Of a DNA stretch of 6,553 bases, positions 1-6,553 are shown piece by piece. Below the pieces are notes generated by a model. That model was not told where the DNA came from. It saw nothing but the letters and a program-made list of their open reading frames with translations, and searched no databases. Within the stretch, counting starts at the first letter, position 1. Each line of letters opens with the position of its first letter. The stretch is taken from IMG/VR virus record IMGVR_UViG_2654587568_000008, positions 1-6,553 of that record, one strand, 5' to 3'. Position numbers and translations under genes: made by a program. The DNA is from a virus (taxonomy: Duplodnaviria; Heunggongvirae; Uroviricota; Caudoviricetes).

Positions 1-928
1 GGATTGGATTAGGTTTAATAACATACCTATAATGTTCAGTCATGAGATATCAAGAATAAATGCTACGCCTGGTAACGTTCTTCTACAGAGCACCTCTGCT
101 TTTCCGCGCGTTTTAGTAAAAGCATCTGAGTTGAGAAAGGTTTTAGTTATACGTTCTTTTGAGCCTGATGATCACTTAAAGTTCATATTAGAGAACGCAA
201 TTGAGATATTTAAAAAACAGATGCCAGATCTTGATTGCGAGATTATTGATGTTAGATCGAAAGCTGAGTTTATTGATGCTCTAAATCAATATCAAGGTCA
301 TATTCTTGTTATGGATTGTCATGGAAACCATGATGGCAATGGGAGTCATGGATGGTTAATAATAGGTGAGGATAAAGTGGACACTTGGAGTTTGAGAAAA
401 ATAGCAAGAATTCCTCCTATCGTAATTCTGAGTGCATGTTTAACATCTGCCCTAAGTGGTTCTCATGCCTCTGTTGCTAATGGCTTCGTTATAAGTGGTG
501 CATTAAGTGTCATCGGAACATTACTGCCTGTAAATGCGATAGACTCTGCTATTTTTGTAAGTCGGTTGATCTACCGGTTTTACGAGTTTCCTTCGACGCT
601 ATCTACAAATTTTACACATGTTAATGTAAGGCTTTTTCTTTCTGTTTTTCTTAGGATGTCCTATGCAAGCGATTTAATAAGAGGATTTTTATCTGAAGAT
701 TTGATACCGAATAATTCATGGAAGAAAGATGCAGTTGACATTAACATGTATATAAACATGCTTCACCATGATTGGTATGATTATGTAATTAACAAATTGA
801 CGATGTTAACGGGGCTCACGAAAAAAGATGTACTTGATTTTATCGATAGAAAATTATTCATAACCGAAACTATGTGCTATAGCCAAATTGGATTTCCAGA
901 TGCAATCACAATTAGTCTTAAAGATTGA
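1..928 (+). CDS. CHAT/caspase-like (His-Cys dyad) protease-domain protein, probably 5'-partial (reading frame open from window edge; first in-window ATG at 32; stop TGA 926-928)
   Basis: Frame beginning at nt 2 has no stop before ATG 32, so the ORF may continue upstream, and there is no Shine-Dalgarno before ATG 32. Translation contains ...HILVMDCHGNHDGNG... (His-Gly), about 40 residues later ...PPIVILSACLTSALSG... (Cys), then ...ANGFVISGALSVIGTLLPVNAIDSAIF..., the layout of the CHAT/caspase catalytic core. The gene is much more AT-rich than the rest of the window. Family call is by eye, not HMM. Confidence 0.6.
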   Translation, partial: DWIRFNNIPIMFSHEISRINATPGNVLLQSTSAFPRVLVKASELRKVLVIRSFEPDDHLKFILENAIEIFKKQMPDLDCEIIDVRSKAEFIDALNQYQGHILVMDCHGNHDGNGSHGWLIIGEDKVDTWSLRKIARIPPIVILSACLTSALSGSHASVANGFVISGALSVIGTLLPVNAIDSAIFVSRLIYRFYEFPSTLSTNFTHVNVRLFLSVFLRMSYASDLIRGFLSEDLIPNNSWKKDAVDINMYINMLHHDWYDYVINKLTMLTGLTKKDVLDFIDRKLFITETMCYSQIGFPDAITISLKD

Positions 929-959
929 CAACTGTATGTAATAAATATGGCATACTTCC

Positions 960-1000
960 GGCACAGAGCGAATATAACAGATCAGGTTTAGCTCTGTGCC
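960..1000. repeat. Perfect 10-bp inverted repeat GGCACAGAGC (960-969) / GCTCTGTGCC (991-1000) with 21-nt spacer, between convergent genes at the GC-content boundary
   Basis: Arms are exact reverse complements. No U/T tract follows on either strand, so it is not a classic intrinsic terminator. Confidence 0.7.
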
Positions 1001-1035: not shown

Positions 1036-1230
1036 TTACTCAATAACTCCCGCAAATTTGTAAATCTTGCGTGATGCCCATTTATTTGGGCATGATTTAA
1101 TATCAGGATCTGGAAAGTCTGGCCTGTATTTCTGGCCAGTTCTCCTGTTTACGCTGTTCCAGCGAAGAACTGTCGATACTGAAACTCCACAGAAGTTGGC
1201 GACTTGTTTAGTTGTCATTAAGTTGTTCAT
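1036..1230 (-). CDS. Small DNA-binding protein, excisionase/AlpA-like (Xis family), 64 aa
   Basis: ATG at 1228-1230 is preceded by GGAGG with 7-nt spacing. Stop TAA at 1036-1038. Product MNNLMTTKQVANFCGVSVSTVLRW...FPDPDIK...KW has the winged-helix pattern of phage Xis/AlpA proteins. Its start overlaps the upstream gene's stop by 1 nt (TAATG). Confidence 0.7.
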   Translation of the reverse strand: MNNLMTTKQVANFCGVSVSTVLRWNSVNRRTGQKYRPDFPDPDIKSCPNKWASRKIYKFAGVIE

Positions 1231-1850: not shown

Positions 1851-2212
1851 TATGCTCCAGCCTCCGGTGCTTTTGGCATTACTGCCCAGTGAGTGATATT
1901 AATATTTTCAAGGTCCCCGATCTGAAATGTCCACTGCCATTCTCCGGTTTCTTTTTGTCCCCAGGTGTACCAGAGAGAACGCCAGCCAATCAGCCAGCCT
2001 TCTCCGTTAGCATCAAATAACAGAACACTTTCATTTGCTGGTGGCAGTTCAACTGATACTGGTATTACTTTGTTTTCCTGTGCTGCACATTTAGCTTCAA
2101 GCGCATCGAATTTACGCACCAGGTATTCAGCATCCGTTTCATTCACTTTCAGGTCTCGTGGTACACATCTCCCGTGAAGAAACCCTTCCATTTCGAAAAC
2201 ATTCATGCGCAT
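1850..2212 (-). CDS. yfdS: DUF551-domain prophage protein YfdS, 120 aa
   Basis: ATG at 2210-2212 with GGAG 8 nt upstream. Stop TAA at 1850-1852. C-terminus ...GWLIGW...WYTWGQ...NITHWAVMPKAPE is DUF551-like. It overlaps the yfdR stop by 10 nt. Length and position match K-12 YfdS from memory. Confidence 0.75.
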   Translation of the reverse strand: MRMNVFEMEGFLHGRCVPRDLKVNETDAEYLVRKFDALEAKCAAQENKVIPVSVELPPANESVLLFDANGEGWLIGWRSLWYTWGQKETGEWQWTFQIGDLENINITHWAVMPKAPEAGA

Positions 2213-2739
2213 TTGCGTAACTCCGATAACTCGTTAAAACGTTCCATAAACATCCCGTAGGCATGGCCCGGAGCCAGTGGAATAACTTTGAACATCTCTG
2301 TTGTCGGGATACCTTCCAGTACTGGCCAGAAAGAGCCATCATCAAGCCCGAGATCGCGGCGTTCAGTTGCCAGCATGATGAGATCGGCATATTTCACAGG
2401 CGTGCTCATAACCGGGGGTAACCCGTATTTCTCACGGATTACGGCGTCTATTTTTTCTTCCATCCGTTTATAGTCAGGAAGAAGGCGTTTCAGTGGAGCG
2501 GGGATGTCCTGACAATACGCTTCTGTTGCATCATGCATTAACGCTTCAAAAGCAAATTCCTGCGGCACCAGCTGGCTGCAAAGCACCGCATGCTGGGCGA
2601 CACTGTAGAAGTGTGAAAGATGTCCTGCAAAGCGACAGATATTTGAAAGGGAAACTGCGATATCGTTAATCACGATGTCGTCTTTATTTATCTTGTCATA
2701 ATAAAAATGCTTCCCGGAAAAAGTTTTAATAAATGACAT
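2203..2739 (-). CDS. yfdR: HD-domain phosphohydrolase (5'-deoxynucleotidase-type) YfdR, 178 aa; start at ATG 2737-2739 rather than the track's GTG at 2751
   Basis: HD motif H...HD...D is visible (FAGHLSHFYSVAQHAV...ALMHDATEAYCQD). ATG at 2737-2739 is preceded by GGAG with 6-nt spacer, while the track's first codon at 2749-2751 is GTG. The resulting 178-aa length and its position between yfdQ and yfdS match K-12 YfdR from memory. Confidence 0.8.
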   Translation of the reverse strand: MSFIKTFSGKHFYYDKINKDDIVINDIAVSLSNICRFAGHLSHFYSVAQHAVLCSQLVPQEFAFEALMHDATEAYCQDIPAPLKRLLPDYKRMEEKIDAVIREKYGLPPVMSTPVKYADLIMLATERRDLGLDDGSFWPVLEGIPTTEMFKVIPLAPGHAYGMFMERFNELSELRKCA

Positions 2740-2832
2740 TTCGTTCTCCACTTTATATGCGCTGCACCGCGCTGAATTCTGCTAAAAGGAAGCTCTCACC
2801 ATCCGGTGATTATTGAGTTAATTACGTTTCCA

Positions 2833-2856
2833 TAAATGCCCCCGCAGGGGCATTTG
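2833..2856 (-). terminator. GC-rich palindromic hairpin AAATGCCCC-cgca-GGGGCATTT in the yfdQ-yfdR intergenic gap; candidate intra-operon terminator or attenuator (possibly bidirectional)
   Basis: 9-bp perfect stem (2834-2842 / 2847-2855) with 4-nt loop, U-rich at the 3' side of the stem on both strands. It lies in the 116-bp gap between the yfdQ stop (2868) and the yfdR start (2739). Confidence 0.45.
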
Positions 2857-2867
2857 CAGTAATGAAA

Positions 2868-3692
2868 TCAGGCGGTGAAAGTACCAATAAAGGTTTCTAC
2901 TTTGCTGTCTTTGAATTTCTCAACAAGCAGATCACGAAATTCGTTAGCCATTTCTTCCTGCATCGCTTCCAGCTGAATAATGCGCAGAACCAGTACAGGA
3001 CGATCGCCAGTGATAATGCTGAGGCGTAATTTAAACGGACGTTCTTTCAGGCCTTCAAACGGAACGCATTTAAATTCAAATGCCACTGGCATAATGTCTT
3101 TGGTTTTCGCTTCGACAGACTCCATCAGGGAGCGTTTGCCGCTGAAGTCATTGTCTTCAAAATCAGCGGTCTGGTTTGCTTCAATTGTGATTTTACGGAC
3201 TGCCGCAGCCGCTTTGGTTGCCTGAATGGTGTCACCATTAGCATCAAAGCCCACAAGGTAGTCGGCCCAGTCTTCAATCCATTCTGCCAGTGACTTCTGG
3301 GAGTTACGCTCGCCATTAACAGACAACAGAGCAGAAAACGGTGCTGTCTTTTTCAGTTTGAGGGTGGCGGTGTTATCTGCGTGACCTGGTTCATCAATAG
3401 TACCCAGGTTAAGCACACTGACGGCTCGCATATTATCGGCATCGATAAAGCAGCGGGTGCCTTCATCTGCAAGATCTTTAGAATAACGGGTAAAGTCATC
3501 GATGCTGGCAGTGGAAAGCGCACCACGGAAACGGAAGCGATTTAAATTAAATTTTTCCAGATCATGAATGCGGAAATTCTCAGGCAATGCCACAGCATCG
3601 GCACCAATCTTACTGATAATTTCATTAACACCCTGAGCAGAAATAAGGGCATGGATTTGATTAATTGCGGTTGCGTCTAAGTTCTGAGACAT
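2868..3692 (-). CDS. yfdQ: Prophage protein YfdQ (DUF2303 family, function unknown), 274 aa
   Basis: ATG at 3690-3692 is preceded by GAGGA with 6-nt spacer. Stop at 2868-2870. No recognisable catalytic motif. The 274-aa length and position upstream of yfdR match K-12 YfdQ from memory. Confidence 0.8.
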
Positions 3693-3757
3693 AATAAGTC
3701 CTCACTATATAAAGATATTCAGTGATGAGATAAATAATCAGTTAATTAAGAACGATA

Positions 3758-4120
3758 TTAATGACCTGCTGCGCGGAGTTTTCCGTCAGGTTCACCGGCA
3801 AGAGTCAGTAATTGTCCCTGGTCTTCCTGCAGAATAGTCAGGCGACCACCGCGATTGACATACATCGGCGTTTCGGTGGTGTCTTCTTCGGAAATTTTCC
3901 CGCGGTTAGTCGGGCGAACATATGAGAGTTTGTGTTTTATTTTCACACGGTTCTCATCAAACGGTTCGATTTCCAGGTTGAGCGAGACCTTACCTTTGGT
4001 TTTCGTGTTCATCACACCGGAAGCGACTTCACTGAGAACTGCGCCGATTTTGGTTTCAAATACGCCGCCGTCCAGCTCCCCGATAAATGCCTGCACATCA
4101 GTACTGCGTTCGCTAGCCAT
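3758..4120 (-). CDS. yfdP: Prophage protein YfdP-like, 120 aa (true start ATG 4118-4120; the track's 197-aa ORF starting at 4351 is an over-extension)
   Basis: Internal ATG at 4118-4120 (MASERSTDVQ...) is preceded by GAGGAG with 7-nt spacer. The upstream 77 codons translate to a Cys/Arg/His/Pro-rich, non-protein-like sequence and overlap strong RNA hairpins. The 120-aa length matches K-12 YfdP from memory. Confidence 0.7.
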   Translation of the reverse strand: MASERSTDVQAFIGELDGGVFETKIGAVLSEVASGVMNTKTKGKVSLNLEIEPFDENRVKIKHKLSYVRPTNRGKISEEDTTETPMYVNRGGRLTILQEDQGQLLTLAGEPDGKLRAAGH

Positions 4121-4168
4121 TTTGCTGCTCCTCATCATATCGACCCTGCAAGGTCGGTTGGTTTCTCC

Positions 4169-4257
4169 ACAAAACAGAGAAGAACACCTGCGGTGGCAGC
4201 CGCCCGGATGGATTGGGTTATGAGCCCGTCGTCCGGTGATGCTCTTCTCTGTTTTGT
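4169..4257 (-). repeat. 15-bp perfect inverted repeat ACAAAACAGAGAAGA (4169-4183) / TCTTCTCTGTTTTGT (4243-4257) enclosing a 59-nt GC-rich, internally structured loop; long stem-loop in the yfdP 5' leader
   Basis: Arms are exact reverse complements. The loop contains further short hairpins (GCGG/CCGC 4190-4203, GGGTT/GAGCCC 4215-4227). It sits between the DicF-like terminator and the yfdP ribosome-binding site. Confidence 0.6.
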
Positions 4258-4325
4258 AAAAAGAGCGGTACCAGCCGGAAGCAAGTGTACAAACTGGTAC
4301 CGCCAAAGCAGTGGCTGTTGTGGTG
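4258..4325 (-). ncRNA. Candidate DicF-like prophage sRNA with its intrinsic terminator (stem GCGGTACCAG / CTGGTACCGC at 4265-4303, then TCTTTTT)
   Basis: Minus-strand sequence ...CUGCUUUGGCGGUACCAGUUUGUACACUUGCUUCCGGCUGGUACCGCUCUUUUU resembles the E. coli DicF core as I recall it (UUUGGCGGUAUCAGUUUUAC...GCCGCCCUUUUU). A 10-bp GC-rich stem followed by a U tract is directly visible. Location in the early-left leader of a lambdoid immunity region parallels dicF in Qin. Not confirmed by covariance search. Confidence 0.4.
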
Positions 4326-4714
4326 GGGTTGTCACTCAGGCGTATGGTCAACCTGACAATCCGGTGTCCTCAACGGGGAAAGAGTAACCCCGCCATACTT
4401 ACCGCCGCGCCATTTCGCGGATTACCACAACGCTGAGAGCACTTAGCCAGTTACGGCACCACACTTTGTCGCGGCTCCATAAATGCCCTCATCGTTGCAC
4501 CCTGGTCTCTTCCCAGGCGTCAAACCGAATCGCCACGCTGGTTAGGCGTCTTATCAGCATCATCATTGACTTGCACATTCCGGCTACCTGGTTTGTTTGC
4601 CCGAGCAAGGAGTGGATTGTCCCCTTTAACGTCCCCAGACCGCTAACGACGCATGTGCCATACGCCGTGTTACAACCAAATTTTGTTAGTACCTTGTTTG
4701 TAGGTCTGGAAAGA

Positions 4715-4767
4715 AAGATAAAATGAAGTTGCGCATTATGCAAGTGTTTTTATTGCGAGATATGCAA
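4715..4767 (-). promoter_or_regulatory. Candidate OL/PL: two 15-bp operator sites TTGCGCATTATGCAA (4729-4743) and TTGCGAGATATGCAA (4753-4767), centres 24 bp apart, overlapping a candidate leftward promoter
   Basis: Both sites share TTGC-N7-GCAA with the OR site at 5537-5551. Minus-strand -35-like TTGCAT (4738-4743) and -10-like TATCTT (4715-4720) with 17-bp spacing are weak. An alternative -10 CATAAT (4735-4740) has poor -35 spacing. Confidence 0.45.
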
Positions 4768-4777
4768 TTTGATGGGT

Positions 4778-4802
4778 AATGAAAAGCCACCTTCTGGTGG
4801 CT
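4778..4802 (-). terminator. Intrinsic terminator downstream of cI (stem AGCCACC/GGTGGCT, loop TTCT, followed by TTTCATT on the minus strand)
   Basis: 7-bp stem (4785-4791 / 4796-4802) with 4-nt loop and a U-rich tail, located 22 bp past the cI stop codon. Confidence 0.55.
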
Positions 4803-4823
4803 AATTGATGTTGAGGTAGGGGG

Positions 4824-5516
4824 TTAATTGTGTCGCTTAAGGGTTTGTGACTGACTGATTAAGACCTTTCCAAAGACCATAAACCGGTGTTCGTTTTCGC
4901 TGGTAATTCCCCATTCGCGGTAAATCTGATTATCAGAAATTACCAGCAGTTTATCAGGTATCATTTGCAGTCGTTTGACGTAAATTTTATCATCAAAACC
5001 AAATACATATATACCATCCCCATCAAACTGATTGATACTGATATCAACGAAGATGAGATCTCCTGGCTCAATGGTTGGACACATACTGTCCCCACGAACG
5101 TTGATAACTTTAATGTGATTTGCTGGTCGTCCACCAAACATCGATACAGCATTATCAGTTCTGTATTCAATGGCATGAATCACATCAATGACATCACCGC
5201 CCTGGATAAGGCCATTTCCCGCACTGGCACTGACATCCAGCATTTCAATACGGAATACATCCTTCACCTGCGCAACATCCTCACTAATACTGTTTTTACA
5301 TACAGTATTACTTTTGAGGTCTGAGGTAAAGAGATCAGCAATATCAACACCTAAGCTCCTGGCAATATTACTCAGGGCTTGTTCAGTGAATTGTTTCTGC
5401 TTACCTGTTTCGAGGCGCGAGATATTCGCCGCATCCACTCCTATTGCTTCAGCGAGATCGGCGATTTTCATGTTCTTCGCCTGGCGAAGTTGTCTGACTC
5501 GATTTCCTATGTTCAT
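4824..5516 (-). CDS. cI: CI-type prophage repressor: N-terminal XRE-family helix-turn-helix plus C-terminal LexA-like S24 peptidase domain, 230 aa
   Basis: N-terminus ...MKIADLAEAIGVDAANISRLETGK is a helix-turn-helix. C-terminus carries the GDSM serine motif (VRGDSMCPTIEPGD) and a downstream lysine (IYVKRL) as in LexA/lambda CI, with a candidate Ala-Gly cleavage site (SASAGNG). Divergent from the Cro-like gene. Confidence 0.9.
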   Translation of the reverse strand: MNIGNRVRQLRQAKNMKIADLAEAIGVDAANISRLETGKQKQFTEQALSNIARSLGVDIADLFTSDLKSNTVCKNSISEDVAQVKDVFRIEMLDVSASAGNGLIQGGDVIDVIHAIEYRTDNAVSMFGGRPANHIKVINVRGDSMCPTIEPGDLIFVDISINQFDGDGIYVFGFDDKIYVKRLQMIPDKLLVISDNQIYREWGITSENEHRFMVFGKVLISQSQTLKRHN

Positions 5517-5613
5517 GCGTTTATTACATTTCTTTATTGCGCGTTAAGCAAATCAACTTGCGCAAAATATTTGCGTGAAATAATATGCTCATCACGCAAT
5601 ATGTGGAGGTTAT
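5517..5613. promoter_or_regulatory. OR/PR/PRM divergent control region with repeated TTGCG half-sites
   Basis: TTGCG occurs at 5537, 5558 and 5571, CGCAA at 5561 and 5595. 15-bp site TTGCGCGTTAAGCAA (5537-5551). Palindromes TTGCGCAA (5558-5565), CGCAAA-ATA-TTTGCG (5561-5575) and TTGCGTGA...TCACGCAA (5571-5578 / 5592-5599). Candidate PR: -35 TTGCGC (5558-5563), 17-bp spacer, -10 TAATAT (5581-5586). Candidate PRM (minus strand): -35 TTGCTT (5546-5551), 17-bp spacer, -10 TGTAAT (5523-5528). GGAGG at 5605-5609 precedes the cro ATG. Confidence 0.6.
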
Positions 5614-5874
5614 ATGCAATCACCATTACGGAATGTGCGTAAGGCGCACGGATTTACTTTGCAGCATGTTGCTGCGGGCGTTCAGGTCAATCCAGCGACG
5701 CTGAGTCGTATTGAAAGACTGGAACAAATTCCATCTATCGATCTTGCAGAACGTCTGGCCAATTTTTTTAAGGGTGAAATCAGCGAAATGCAGATTCTTT
5801 ATCCGGCACGTTTTCAATCTAGCCAAAACCAGAATGGGTTTAAACCACAGGAACAGGAGGTAAGCCGTGGGTAA
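5614..5874 (+). CDS. cro: Cro-like helix-turn-helix regulator (XRE family), 86 aa
   Basis: ATG at 5614 with GGAGG 4 nt upstream. Helix-turn-helix ...FTLQHVAAGVQVNPATLSRIERLEQIPS. Divergent from cI across the operator region. Stop TAA at 5872-5874. Confidence 0.85.
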   Translation: MQSPLRNVRKAHGFTLQHVAAGVQVNPATLSRIERLEQIPSIDLAERLANFFKGEISEMQILYPARFQSSQNQNGFKPQEQEVSRG

Positions 5875-6418
5875 GCATCACTGGAAAGTGGAAAAACAAC
5901 CTGAGTGGCACGTGAAAGCTGTCAGAAAAACTATCGCGGCATTGCCTGGGGGTTACGCTGAAGCTGCTGACTGGCTGGATGTAACAGAGAACGCTTTATT
6001 CAACCGCCTTCGTGCAGATGGCGATCAGATTTTCCCGCTGGGATGGGCAATGGTTTTACAGCGCGCGGCTGGCACTCACTACATTGCGGATGCTGTCGCA
6101 CAGTCTGCTGGTGGGGTGTTCGTATCGCTTCCTGAAATTGAGGAAGTAGAGAACGCCGATATAAACCAGCGCCTGCTGGAAGTCATCGAACAGATCGGGA
6201 ATTACTCAAAGCAGATTCGTTCGGCAATCGAAGATGGGGTCGTGGAGCCACACGAGCAGACAGCAATTAATGATGAGTTGTATCTGTCAATTTCGAAGCT
6301 CCAGGAACATGCAGCACTGGTCTACAAAATCTTCTGCGCTCCAGAAAAGAGTGACGCCCGCGAGTGTGCAGCTCCGGGCGTCGTGGCGTTTTGTGTCTGT
6401 GGAGAAACTAACGCATGA
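5867..6418 (+). CDS. CII-like / YdaT-type prophage regulatory protein (putative), 183 aa, GTG start, translationally coupled to cro
   Basis: GTG at 5867-5869 is preceded by AGGAGG (5855-5860) and overlaps the cro stop (GTGGGTAA). Possible helix-turn-helix ...GYAEAADWLDVTENALFNRL. Position immediately after cro is typical of CII/YdaT-like regulators. Family assignment is by position and memory only. Confidence 0.7.
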   Translation: MGKHHWKVEKQPEWHVKAVRKTIAALPGGYAEAADWLDVTENALFNRLRADGDQIFPLGWAMVLQRAAGTHYIADAVAQSAGGVFVSLPEIEEVENADINQRLLEVIEQIGNYSKQIRSAIEDGVVEPHEQTAINDELYLSISKLQEHAALVYKIFCAPEKSDARECAAPGVVAFCVCGETNA

Positions 6419-6553
6419 ACAGTTTAACGGCAAATAACCGTTTGTCGCAACAGCTTGTATGGGTCCACCACATATTGCAATTTTTATTCTCTTTTAAAAT
6501 ATATTCCACGGGCGTCATTAGTGCGAGCGCCTTGTGGGGTCTTTTGCTGTTAT
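6415..6553 (+). CDS. Start of a further ORF, 3'-truncated by the window end, coupled to the upstream gene by an ATGA overlap; function unknown
   Basis: ATG at 6415-6417 overlaps the TGA stop at 6416-6418. GGAGAAA lies 7 nt upstream. Frame is open for 46 codons to the window end (MNSLTANNRLSQQLVWVHHILQF...). The AT-rich stretch 6470-6510 could instead be non-coding. Confidence 0.3.
   Translation, partial: MNSLTANNRLSQQLVWVHHILQFLFSFKIYSTGVISASALWGLLLL

What the first reader, a model, noticed from the sequence alone, without database searches (positions are those of the whole stretch)
1..928. AT-rich, horizontally acquired gene with a CHAT/caspase-like protease core, truncated at the window edge
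This gene is far more AT-rich than the flanking prophage genes, is oriented against the adjacent phage operon, and has no ribosome-binding site at its first in-window ATG. Its reading frame is open to nt 2, so the N-terminal part and any partner genes lie upstream of the window. The product shows a His-Gly (DCHGNHDG) then Cys (ILSACLTS) arrangement with the glycine-rich hydrophobic segment typical of CHAT/caspase-fold proteases. Such proteases act as effectors or activators in several bacterial immune systems (for example CRISPR-associated TPR-CHAT and gasdermin-activating proteases), and prophage ends near xis/int are common sites for defence cargo. It is the best candidate in this window for part of an uncharacterised defence or abortive-infection system.
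Basis: partly seen in the sequence, partly recalled or inferred. Interest (0 to 1): 0.7.

Follow-up and report, generated by a model that had tools for sequence, protein, structure and literature searches.

The report
Borvo anti-phage protease gene, truncated

Summary
Window nt 2-928 (+) encodes the last 308 residues of a 710-residue protein. The complete gene is in E. coli DCE7, where the first 1300 nt of the window match at 100%, and in temperate phages cdtI (orf33) and Ayreon.

His509 (nt 320-322) and Cys548 (nt 437-439) are invariant in 32 homologues down to 31% identity. Cys548 aligns with the catalytic Cys627 of TPR-CHAT.

The gene is a 34% GC, one-gene cassette between int and xis. Sister prophages at the same chromosomal site carry AbiU or an HNH protein in that slot. 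Distant homologues have no conserved neighbour, so there is no partner gene.

Published work on an E. coli Borvo shows abortive infection triggered by phage DNA polymerase. The protease substrate is unknown.

Interest is low.

The parts
2..928 (+). 3' part of bovA: codons 403-710 plus the TGA stop of the 710-codon Borvo gene. The first 402 codons lie upstream of the window.
   Evidence: Open frame. The first 1300 nt of the window are 100% identical to E. coli DCE7, where the CDS is L001:13796-15928, WP_015987617.1. The window part matches PADLOC BovA at E 8e-145 over profile positions 406-715 of 720.
257..568 (+). Segment matched by Pfam CHAT (PF12770), window residues 86-189; it holds both putative catalytic residues.
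   Evidence: E 1.9e-6, 28 bits against a cutoff of 24, profile positions 131-245 of 289.
320..322 (+). Codon of His509 (in the motif DCHG), the putative catalytic histidine.
   Evidence: Invariant in 27 and in 32 homologues down to 31% identity. Codon position read.
437..439 (+). Codon of Cys548 (in the motif LSAC), the putative catalytic cysteine.
   Evidence: Invariant. The profile alignment places VILSAC on VILGAC, residues 622-627 of Scalindua brodae TPR-CHAT. Cys627 there is the mutationally proven catalytic Cys (PMC9729208).
929..959 (.). 3' tail of the BovA-specific cargo cassette. Similarity to sister prophages with other cargo is absent up to about nt 959.
   Evidence: Alignment A4. 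BLAST matches of the AbiU and HNH prophages begin at window nt 978, and other prophage hits begin at 960-980.
960..1000 (.). Conserved hairpin (10-bp stem GGCACAGAGC/GCTCTGTGCC, 21-nt loop) at the right edge of the cargo slot. It is a boundary feature and its function is unknown.
   Evidence: Fold energy -23.7 kcal/mol, z = -4.4 on the + strand. The AbiU-carrying prophage has a compensatory G:C to C:G change in the stem. There is no T-run, so the terminator scan did not call it.
1036..1230 (-). Excisionase-like gene (64 aa), the neighbour that closes the int-cargo-xis slot. It is context, not part of Borvo.
   Evidence: Annotated as excisionase (orf34) in phage cdtI. Hits to HTH_17, Xis_Gifsy_1 and excise models are weak and below cutoff.

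Best explanation
Window nt 2-928 is the C-terminal, catalytic part of bovA. BovA is the only gene of the Borvo abortive-infection system. Here it is carried as a self-contained, AT-rich cassette between int and xis of a cdtI/Ayreon-like lambdoid prophage inserted next to yjjG.

Shown here:
- Family membership.
- A CHAT/separase-like fold.
- An invariant His509/Cys548 pair, with the Cys aligned to a proven catalytic Cys.
- One-gene cassette structure.
- The same slot holding other defence genes in sister prophages.

Taken from the literature on the Borvo system of E. coli 403116:
- The system protects E. coli by abortive infection.
- Expression of a phage DNA polymerase alone is toxic in Borvo cells.
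- Phages T5, SECphi4 and SECphi18 escape through mutations in the polymerase proofreading cleft.

Inferred:
- The roughly 400 N-terminal residues outside the window keep the protease inactive and sense the phage polymerase or a product of its activity.
- Activation lets the His/Cys dyad cleave one or more still unidentified essential host or phage proteins, which stops growth before phage release.
- A lambdoid prophage that replicates with the host polymerase can carry such a sensor without triggering it, and uses it to exclude competing lytic phages.
For: - PADLOC BovA: E 2.3e-241, 801 bits, covering positions 3-715 of 720.
- Pfam CHAT above the gathering score, and PGAP names the protein 'CHAT domain-containing protein'.
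- AlphaFold model: pLDDT 87.1, pTM 0.88.
- Foldseek top 34 PDB hits are all CHAT proteins or separases.
- Invariant D507-C508-H509-G510 and S546-A547-C548 in 32 homologues.
- Cys548 aligned to TPR-CHAT Cys627.
- One-gene cassette bounded about 25 nt after the int stop and at window nt 960.
- The same slot holds AbiU (E 2.6e-111) or an 868-aa HNH protein in other prophages.
- No shared neighbours in Pantoea, metagenomic and ICE contexts.
- The gene is present in active temperate phages cdtI and Ayreon.
- Borvo phenotype and polymerase trigger: 10.1101/2022.08.27.505566. CHAT assignment: PMC10952713.
Against: - The sequence of the experimentally tested BovA (E. coli 403116) was not available, so near-identity to this allele is only inferred. 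The inference rests on all 32 E. coli genome copies being at least 99% identical to each other.
- The Pfam CHAT hit is marginal and partial.
- No protease activity, substrate, or direct polymerase binding has been reported for BovA in the papers I could search. A 2024 paper calls Borvo 'poorly understood'.
- No sigma-70 consensus promoter was found upstream of the true start.
- Only 43% of the protein lies in the window.
Confidence: 0.85

Rival explanations
1. The gene is one component of a multi-gene system whose partners lie upstream of the window. Examples would be a protease activating a gasdermin, or a CRISPR- or CBASS-linked effector.
For: CHAT proteases do act that way in type III-E CRISPR and SAVED-CHAT systems, and these are the closest folds. 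The window alone cannot exclude upstream partners.
Against: - In the complete locus the only upstream gene is the prophage integrase, followed by chromosomal yjjG.
- The DNA that differs between sister prophages contains this single ORF.
- Homologues at 31-68% identity sit among unrelated genes with no shared neighbour.
- Borvo is described as a one-gene system.
Confidence: 0.04
2. The gene is a lysogenic-conversion or virulence cargo of the CDT-converting phage (a protease acting on host-cell or bacterial surface targets), and is not an anti-phage system.
Against: - Phage Ayreon and many carriers hold it within the same phage backbone.
- It matches the BovA defence model end to end.
- The slot alternates with AbiU, an abortive-infection gene.
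- The experimental defence phenotype is published for an E. coli Borvo.
Confidence: 0.04
3. BovA defends without proteolysis. On this reading the CHAT module is a scaffold or pseudo-protease, and toxicity arises from binding or sequestering replication proteins.
For: No BovA substrate or cleavage has been reported in the searchable literature. Separase-type modules include an inactive pseudo-protease lobe.
Against: His509, Cys548 and the surrounding DCHG and SAC motifs are invariant across a family that has diverged to 31% identity. This pattern is expected for a working active site.
Confidence: 0.07

Closest known systems
Borvo defence system, BovA (Millman et al. 2022; trigger work in Stokar-Avihail et al., 10.1101/2022.08.27.505566)
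   Same: - End-to-end match to the BovA profile.
- About 710 aa with a C-terminal CHAT domain.
- Single gene in a mobile element of E. coli.
   Different: No difference was detected. Identity to the exact tested allele (E. coli 403116) was not verified. The window holds only residues 403-710.
Type III-E CRISPR Craspase protease TPR-CHAT / Csx29
   Same: - Same His-then-Cys dyad; VILSAC aligns on VILGAC (Cys627).
- An immune protease kept inactive until a foreign-nucleic-acid-related signal arrives.
   Different: - 10-15% sequence identity.
- No TPR repeats were detected; the N-terminal region is predicted to be alpha/beta.
- No gRAMP/Cas7-11, Csx30 or Csx31 genes nearby.
- The trigger is a phage DNA polymerase, not a crRNA-matched RNA.
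Separase (eukaryotic CD-clan protease)
   Different: No long helical N-terminal domain, no securin or cohesin context, and it is bacterial and phage-borne.
SAVED-CHAT and gasdermin-activating caspase-like proteases of bacterial immunity
   Different: No SAVED sensor domain (Pfam finds only CHAT). No cyclic-oligonucleotide synthase or gasdermin gene is adjacent.

Membership tests
Borvo (BovA) | Full-length similarity to the BovA family profile | tested here: met
   PADLOC PDLC03831: E 2.3e-241, 801 bits, protein residues 4-709 on profile positions 3-715 of 720. Window part: E 8e-145.
Borvo (BovA) | CHAT protease domain in the C-terminal half, with a conserved His/Cys pair | tested here: met
   Pfam PF12770 at 26-28 bits against a cutoff of 24. 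His509 and Cys548 invariant. Fold matches.
Borvo (BovA) | Works as a single gene with no conserved partner gene | tested here: met
   One-ORF cassette between int and xis. Neighbours are unrelated in four distant homologue loci. Genomic evidence only.
Borvo (BovA) | Protects against phages by abortive infection, triggered by phage DNA polymerase | not testable with these tools
   Reported for Borvo of E. coli 403116. I could not obtain that protein's sequence to compare it with this allele.
CHAT / clan CD caspase-fold peptidases | Caspase-hemoglobinase fold | tested here: met
   [not shown]
CHAT / clan CD caspase-fold peptidases | Catalytic His followed by catalytic Cys at the homologous positions | tested here: met
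   Order is His509 then Cys548, both invariant. The Cys aligns with TPR-CHAT Cys627. The His is covered only by the Pfam profile match, and its spatial proximity to the Cys was not measured.
CHAT / clan CD caspase-fold peptidases | Peptidase activity | not testable with these tools
   Needs biochemistry. No report for BovA was found.
Type III-E CRISPR TPR-CHAT (Csx29) | N-terminal TPR repeats and genomic association with gRAMP/Cas7-11 and Csx30 | tested here: not met
   No TPR hit at E <= 1. The N-terminal region is predicted as alternating strands and helices. Neighbours are int, xis and phage genes.
SAVED-CHAT / gasdermin-activating proteases | Fused SAVED sensor, or an adjacent gasdermin or CD-NTase gene | tested here: not met
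   Only CHAT was found in the protein. No such gene is present in the cassette or flanks.

The most novel reading that the evidence does not exclude
BovA may be a separase-like, two-lobed protease whose conserved, otherwise unassignable N-terminal 400 residues form a new sensor of the proofreading cleft of phage family-A DNA polymerases. Lambdoid phages such as cdtI and Ayreon would carry it because they lack a polymerase of their own, which makes it a self-safe weapon against competing lytic phages. Neither the sensing step nor the substrate is known, and this locus (native cassette in an inducible phage) would be a natural system in which to find them.
Probability: 0.35. Interest if true: 0.45.

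Novelty: already known. Interest (0 to 1): 0.15.

Why it matters
As a discovery it matters little. Standard defence-finder models and RefSeq annotation already label this gene, and near-identical copies sit in two sequenced phages and 32 complete E. coli genomes.

Its residual value is practical.
- It documents Borvo as cargo of active temperate phages, including the CDT-I-converting phage.
- It documents the int-xis junction of this prophage family as a one-gene defence slot that alternates between BovA, AbiU and an HNH protein.
- It pinpoints His509 and Cys548 as the residues to mutate in a system whose substrate and activation mechanism are still unpublished in the literature I could search.

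Tried and rejected
- NCBIfam scan of the full protein: no family.
- Foldseek against viral predicted structures (BFVD): nothing below E 1e-3.
- Sequence-profile search of the PDB: only a weak local hit (E 0.009) around the Cys motif. It was useful for residue alignment but not for family assignment.
- Consensus promoter scan upstream of the true start: no + strand site.
- Terminator scan after the stop: it did not call the 960-1000 hairpin.
- Attempts to get the tested Borvo sequence or accession all failed. The Millman preprint version does not mention Borvo or CHAT. The Stokar-Avihail supplement gives only the strain name. The T7-kinase paper has no held supplements. Accession and phage-name searches found no paper linking cdtI orf33 to Borvo.
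- Model coordinates are not exposed to scripts, so the His-Cys distance was not measured.
- Multi-gene, TPR-CHAT, SAVED-CHAT and gasdermin-linked readings were considered and rejected on gene context and domain content.

Full report
**Observation**

The frame starting at window nt 2 is open to a TGA at 926-928 and encodes 308 residues. The first in-window ATG (nt 32) has no ribosome-binding site because it is an internal methionine.

The first 1300 nt of the window are 100% identical to E. coli DCE7 (NZ_CP090611.1). There the CDS is 2133 nt (710 aa, WP_015987617.1) and starts 1205 nt upstream of the window edge.

Base composition:

| Region | GC |
|---|---|
| Window nt 1-928 | 35.5% |
| Rest of the window | 46.7% |
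| Whole bovA gene | 34.0% (GC3 27%) |
| Neighbouring integrase | 45% |
| Flanking chromosome | 50% |

The gene is on the + strand and converges on a - strand early-left operon:
- a 64-aa excisionase-like ORF at 1036-1230
- two DUF551 genes
- an HD-type 5'-deoxynucleotidase
- YfdQ/DUF2303
- YfdP

Downstream of these lie a cI-type repressor (HTH plus Peptidase_S24), a cro-like HTH and a cII-like Phage_CP76 protein.

**What it is**

The full-length protein matches the PADLOC model for BovA from end to end (E 2.3e-241, 801 bits, profile positions 3-715 of 720). The window fragment alone gives E 8e-145. BovA is the single protein of the Borvo defence system, which the literature lists as a CHAT-protease system (PMC10952713).

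Pfam CHAT (PF12770) is passed, but narrowly and only over the catalytic core (28 bits for the fragment, 26 for the full protein, cutoff 24). RefSeq annotates the protein as 'CHAT domain-containing protein'. NCBIfam has no model for it.

**Catalytic residues**

A search of 5.8 billion proteins returned 34 clusters at 30-99% identity, almost all about 710 aa. In alignments of 27 and 32 of them the following are invariant: D507-C508-H509-G510, H512, G514 and L545-S546-A547-C548, T550. In window coordinates the His509 codon is nt 320-322 and the Cys548 codon is nt 437-439.

A profile of the family aligned against PDB sequences places VILSAC on VILGAC, residues 622-627 of Scalindua brodae TPR-CHAT. 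Cys627 is the catalytic cysteine there, and its mutation abolishes Csx30 cleavage. It forms a dyad with His585, equivalent to separase H2003/C2029 (PMC9729208).

**Fold**

An AlphaFold2 model built on the 32-sequence alignment has mean pLDDT 87.1 and pTM 0.88. The target was P0001, the cluster representative. It differs from the DCE7 protein, whose window-encoded part is identical to the window, at 5 of 710 residues.

| Search | Result |
|---|---|
| Foldseek vs PDB | The first 34 hits are all CHAT proteins or separases: Csx29/TPR-CHAT E 6e-8, separase, the anti-sigma factor DdvA, SAVED-CHAT |

An aligned span of about 300 residues suggests a two-lobed separase-type module and not a bare caspase domain. 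For the same reason the His-Cys distance was not measured.

The first 400 residues have no Pfam assignment. They are predicted as alternating strands and helices followed by long helices, and they contain many invariant positions between residues 281 and 431.

**Genomic setting**

In DCE7 the order is: yjjG, a 69-nt gene fragment, integrase (+), bovA (+), the unannotated xis ORF (-), DUF551, then the rest of a lambdoid prophage. Phage cdtI has the same arrangement: orf32 integrase, orf33 (= BovA, annotated hypothetical), orf34 excisionase. The cdtABC genes lie about 2 kb to the left. Phage Ayreon, isolated on E. coli K-12, also carries the gene.

Only 32 of 5426 complete E. coli genomes have the gene, all at 99% identity or more and all chromosomal. 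By contrast, the neighbouring xis/DUF551 sequence occurs in thousands of genomes.

Two sister prophages inserted at the same yjjG site carry other cargo in the int-xis slot:
- a 566-aa AIPR-family protein that matches AbiU (PADLOC E 2.6e-111)
- an 868-aa HNH-domain protein

Alignment of the three loci shows that similarity stops about 25 nt after the integrase stop codon and resumes at window nt 960. The variable segment is therefore a one-gene cassette with its own AT-rich upstream region.

Homologues at 31-68% identity lie in conjugative elements or integrase islands, next to unrelated genes. These include Tra genes, an HATPase_c_3 protein, an SMC/AAA_23 protein and other integrases, with no shared neighbour.

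**How it most likely works**

Published (preprint 10.1101/2022.08.27.505566):
- Borvo from E. coli 403116, under its native promoter in MG1655, behaves as an abortive-infection system. Cultures collapse at high MOI and survive at low MOI.
- Expression of the SECphi4 DNA polymerase alone is toxic only in Borvo-containing cells.
- T5, SECphi4 and SECphi18 escape through missense changes in the polymerase proofreading cleft.

Later papers still call Borvo poorly understood (PMC11348598). I found no report of its substrate or structure.

Inferred:
- The N-terminal 400 residues keep the protease inactive and sense the polymerase or a product of its activity.
- Activation exposes the His509/Cys548 dyad, which cleaves one or more essential proteins and halts the infected cell.
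- Lambdoid carriers encode no DNA polymerase, so they would not trip the sensor themselves.

I put identity as BovA at about 0.95 and the protease-effector mechanism at about 0.6.

**Caveats**

- The sequence of the tested 403116 protein was not retrievable, so near-identity with this allele is only inferred. The inference rests on the uniformity of the E. coli copies.
- The Pfam hit is marginal.
- No promoter consensus was found upstream of the true start.
- The window holds only 43% of the protein.

**Comparison and novelty**

This is a member of a known, named, experimentally validated family, found by standard tools and already annotated in RefSeq. It works like other immune CHAT proteases (Craspase, SAVED-CHAT). 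It is not a member of those systems, because it lacks TPR and SAVED domains and the associated genes.

Interest is low. The only open questions are Borvo's unresolved substrate and sensing mechanism, which this window does not advance by itself.

Noticed in passing
window 960-1000: A conserved hairpin (10-bp GC-rich stem, 21-nt loop) sits where similarity between prophages with different int-xis cargo resumes. The AbiU-carrying prophage has a compensatory G:C to C:G change in the stem. There is no T-run, so it is not a canonical intrinsic terminator. It might be a processing or retroregulation site for the xis/early-left transcript, or a recombination boundary.
   Followed up: partly
window 1036-1230 (-): A 64-aa excisionase-like ORF. 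It is annotated as excisionase in phage cdtI (orf34) but left unannotated by PGAP in the E. coli DCE7 chromosome. Hits to the HTH_17, Xis_Gifsy_1 and excise models are all below cutoff.
   Followed up: partly
L004:4118-5818 and L005:3319-5925 (same yjjG-side prophage slot as window 1-959): The int-xis slot of this prophage family is a one-gene cargo hotspot. It holds BovA in this window's lineage, AbiU (PADLOC E 2.6e-111) in E. coli 13P484A, and an 868-aa protein with a C-terminal HNH domain and no defence-system assignment in E. coli WCHEC020032.
   Followed up: partly
window 4688-5838: The immunity region (cI-type repressor at 4824-5516 and cro-like gene at 5614-5874) does not match phage cdtI or the DCE7 prophage. 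It does match phage mEp460 (97% over window 1862-6458). The window's prophage is therefore a mosaic of a cdtI-like left arm and an mEp460-like immunity module, and no complete E. coli genome in the collection matches the whole window at more than 97.5%.
   Followed up: partly
window 3758-4800: This is the most GC-rich stretch of the window (up to 55%). It has a 197-aa - strand ORF (3758-4351) with no Pfam hit that overlaps + strand ORFs. GenBank AB285204 labels a gene under the window match 'Valyl-tRNA synthetase', which looks like a misannotation.
   Followed up: no
L001:27281-28669: Further along the same prophage in E. coli DCE7, a - strand pair lies between the Q antiterminator and the lysis genes, a typical moron position. 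The pair is a DUF6731 protein and a 146-aa hypothetical protein. Neither matches any PADLOC model.
   Followed up: partly
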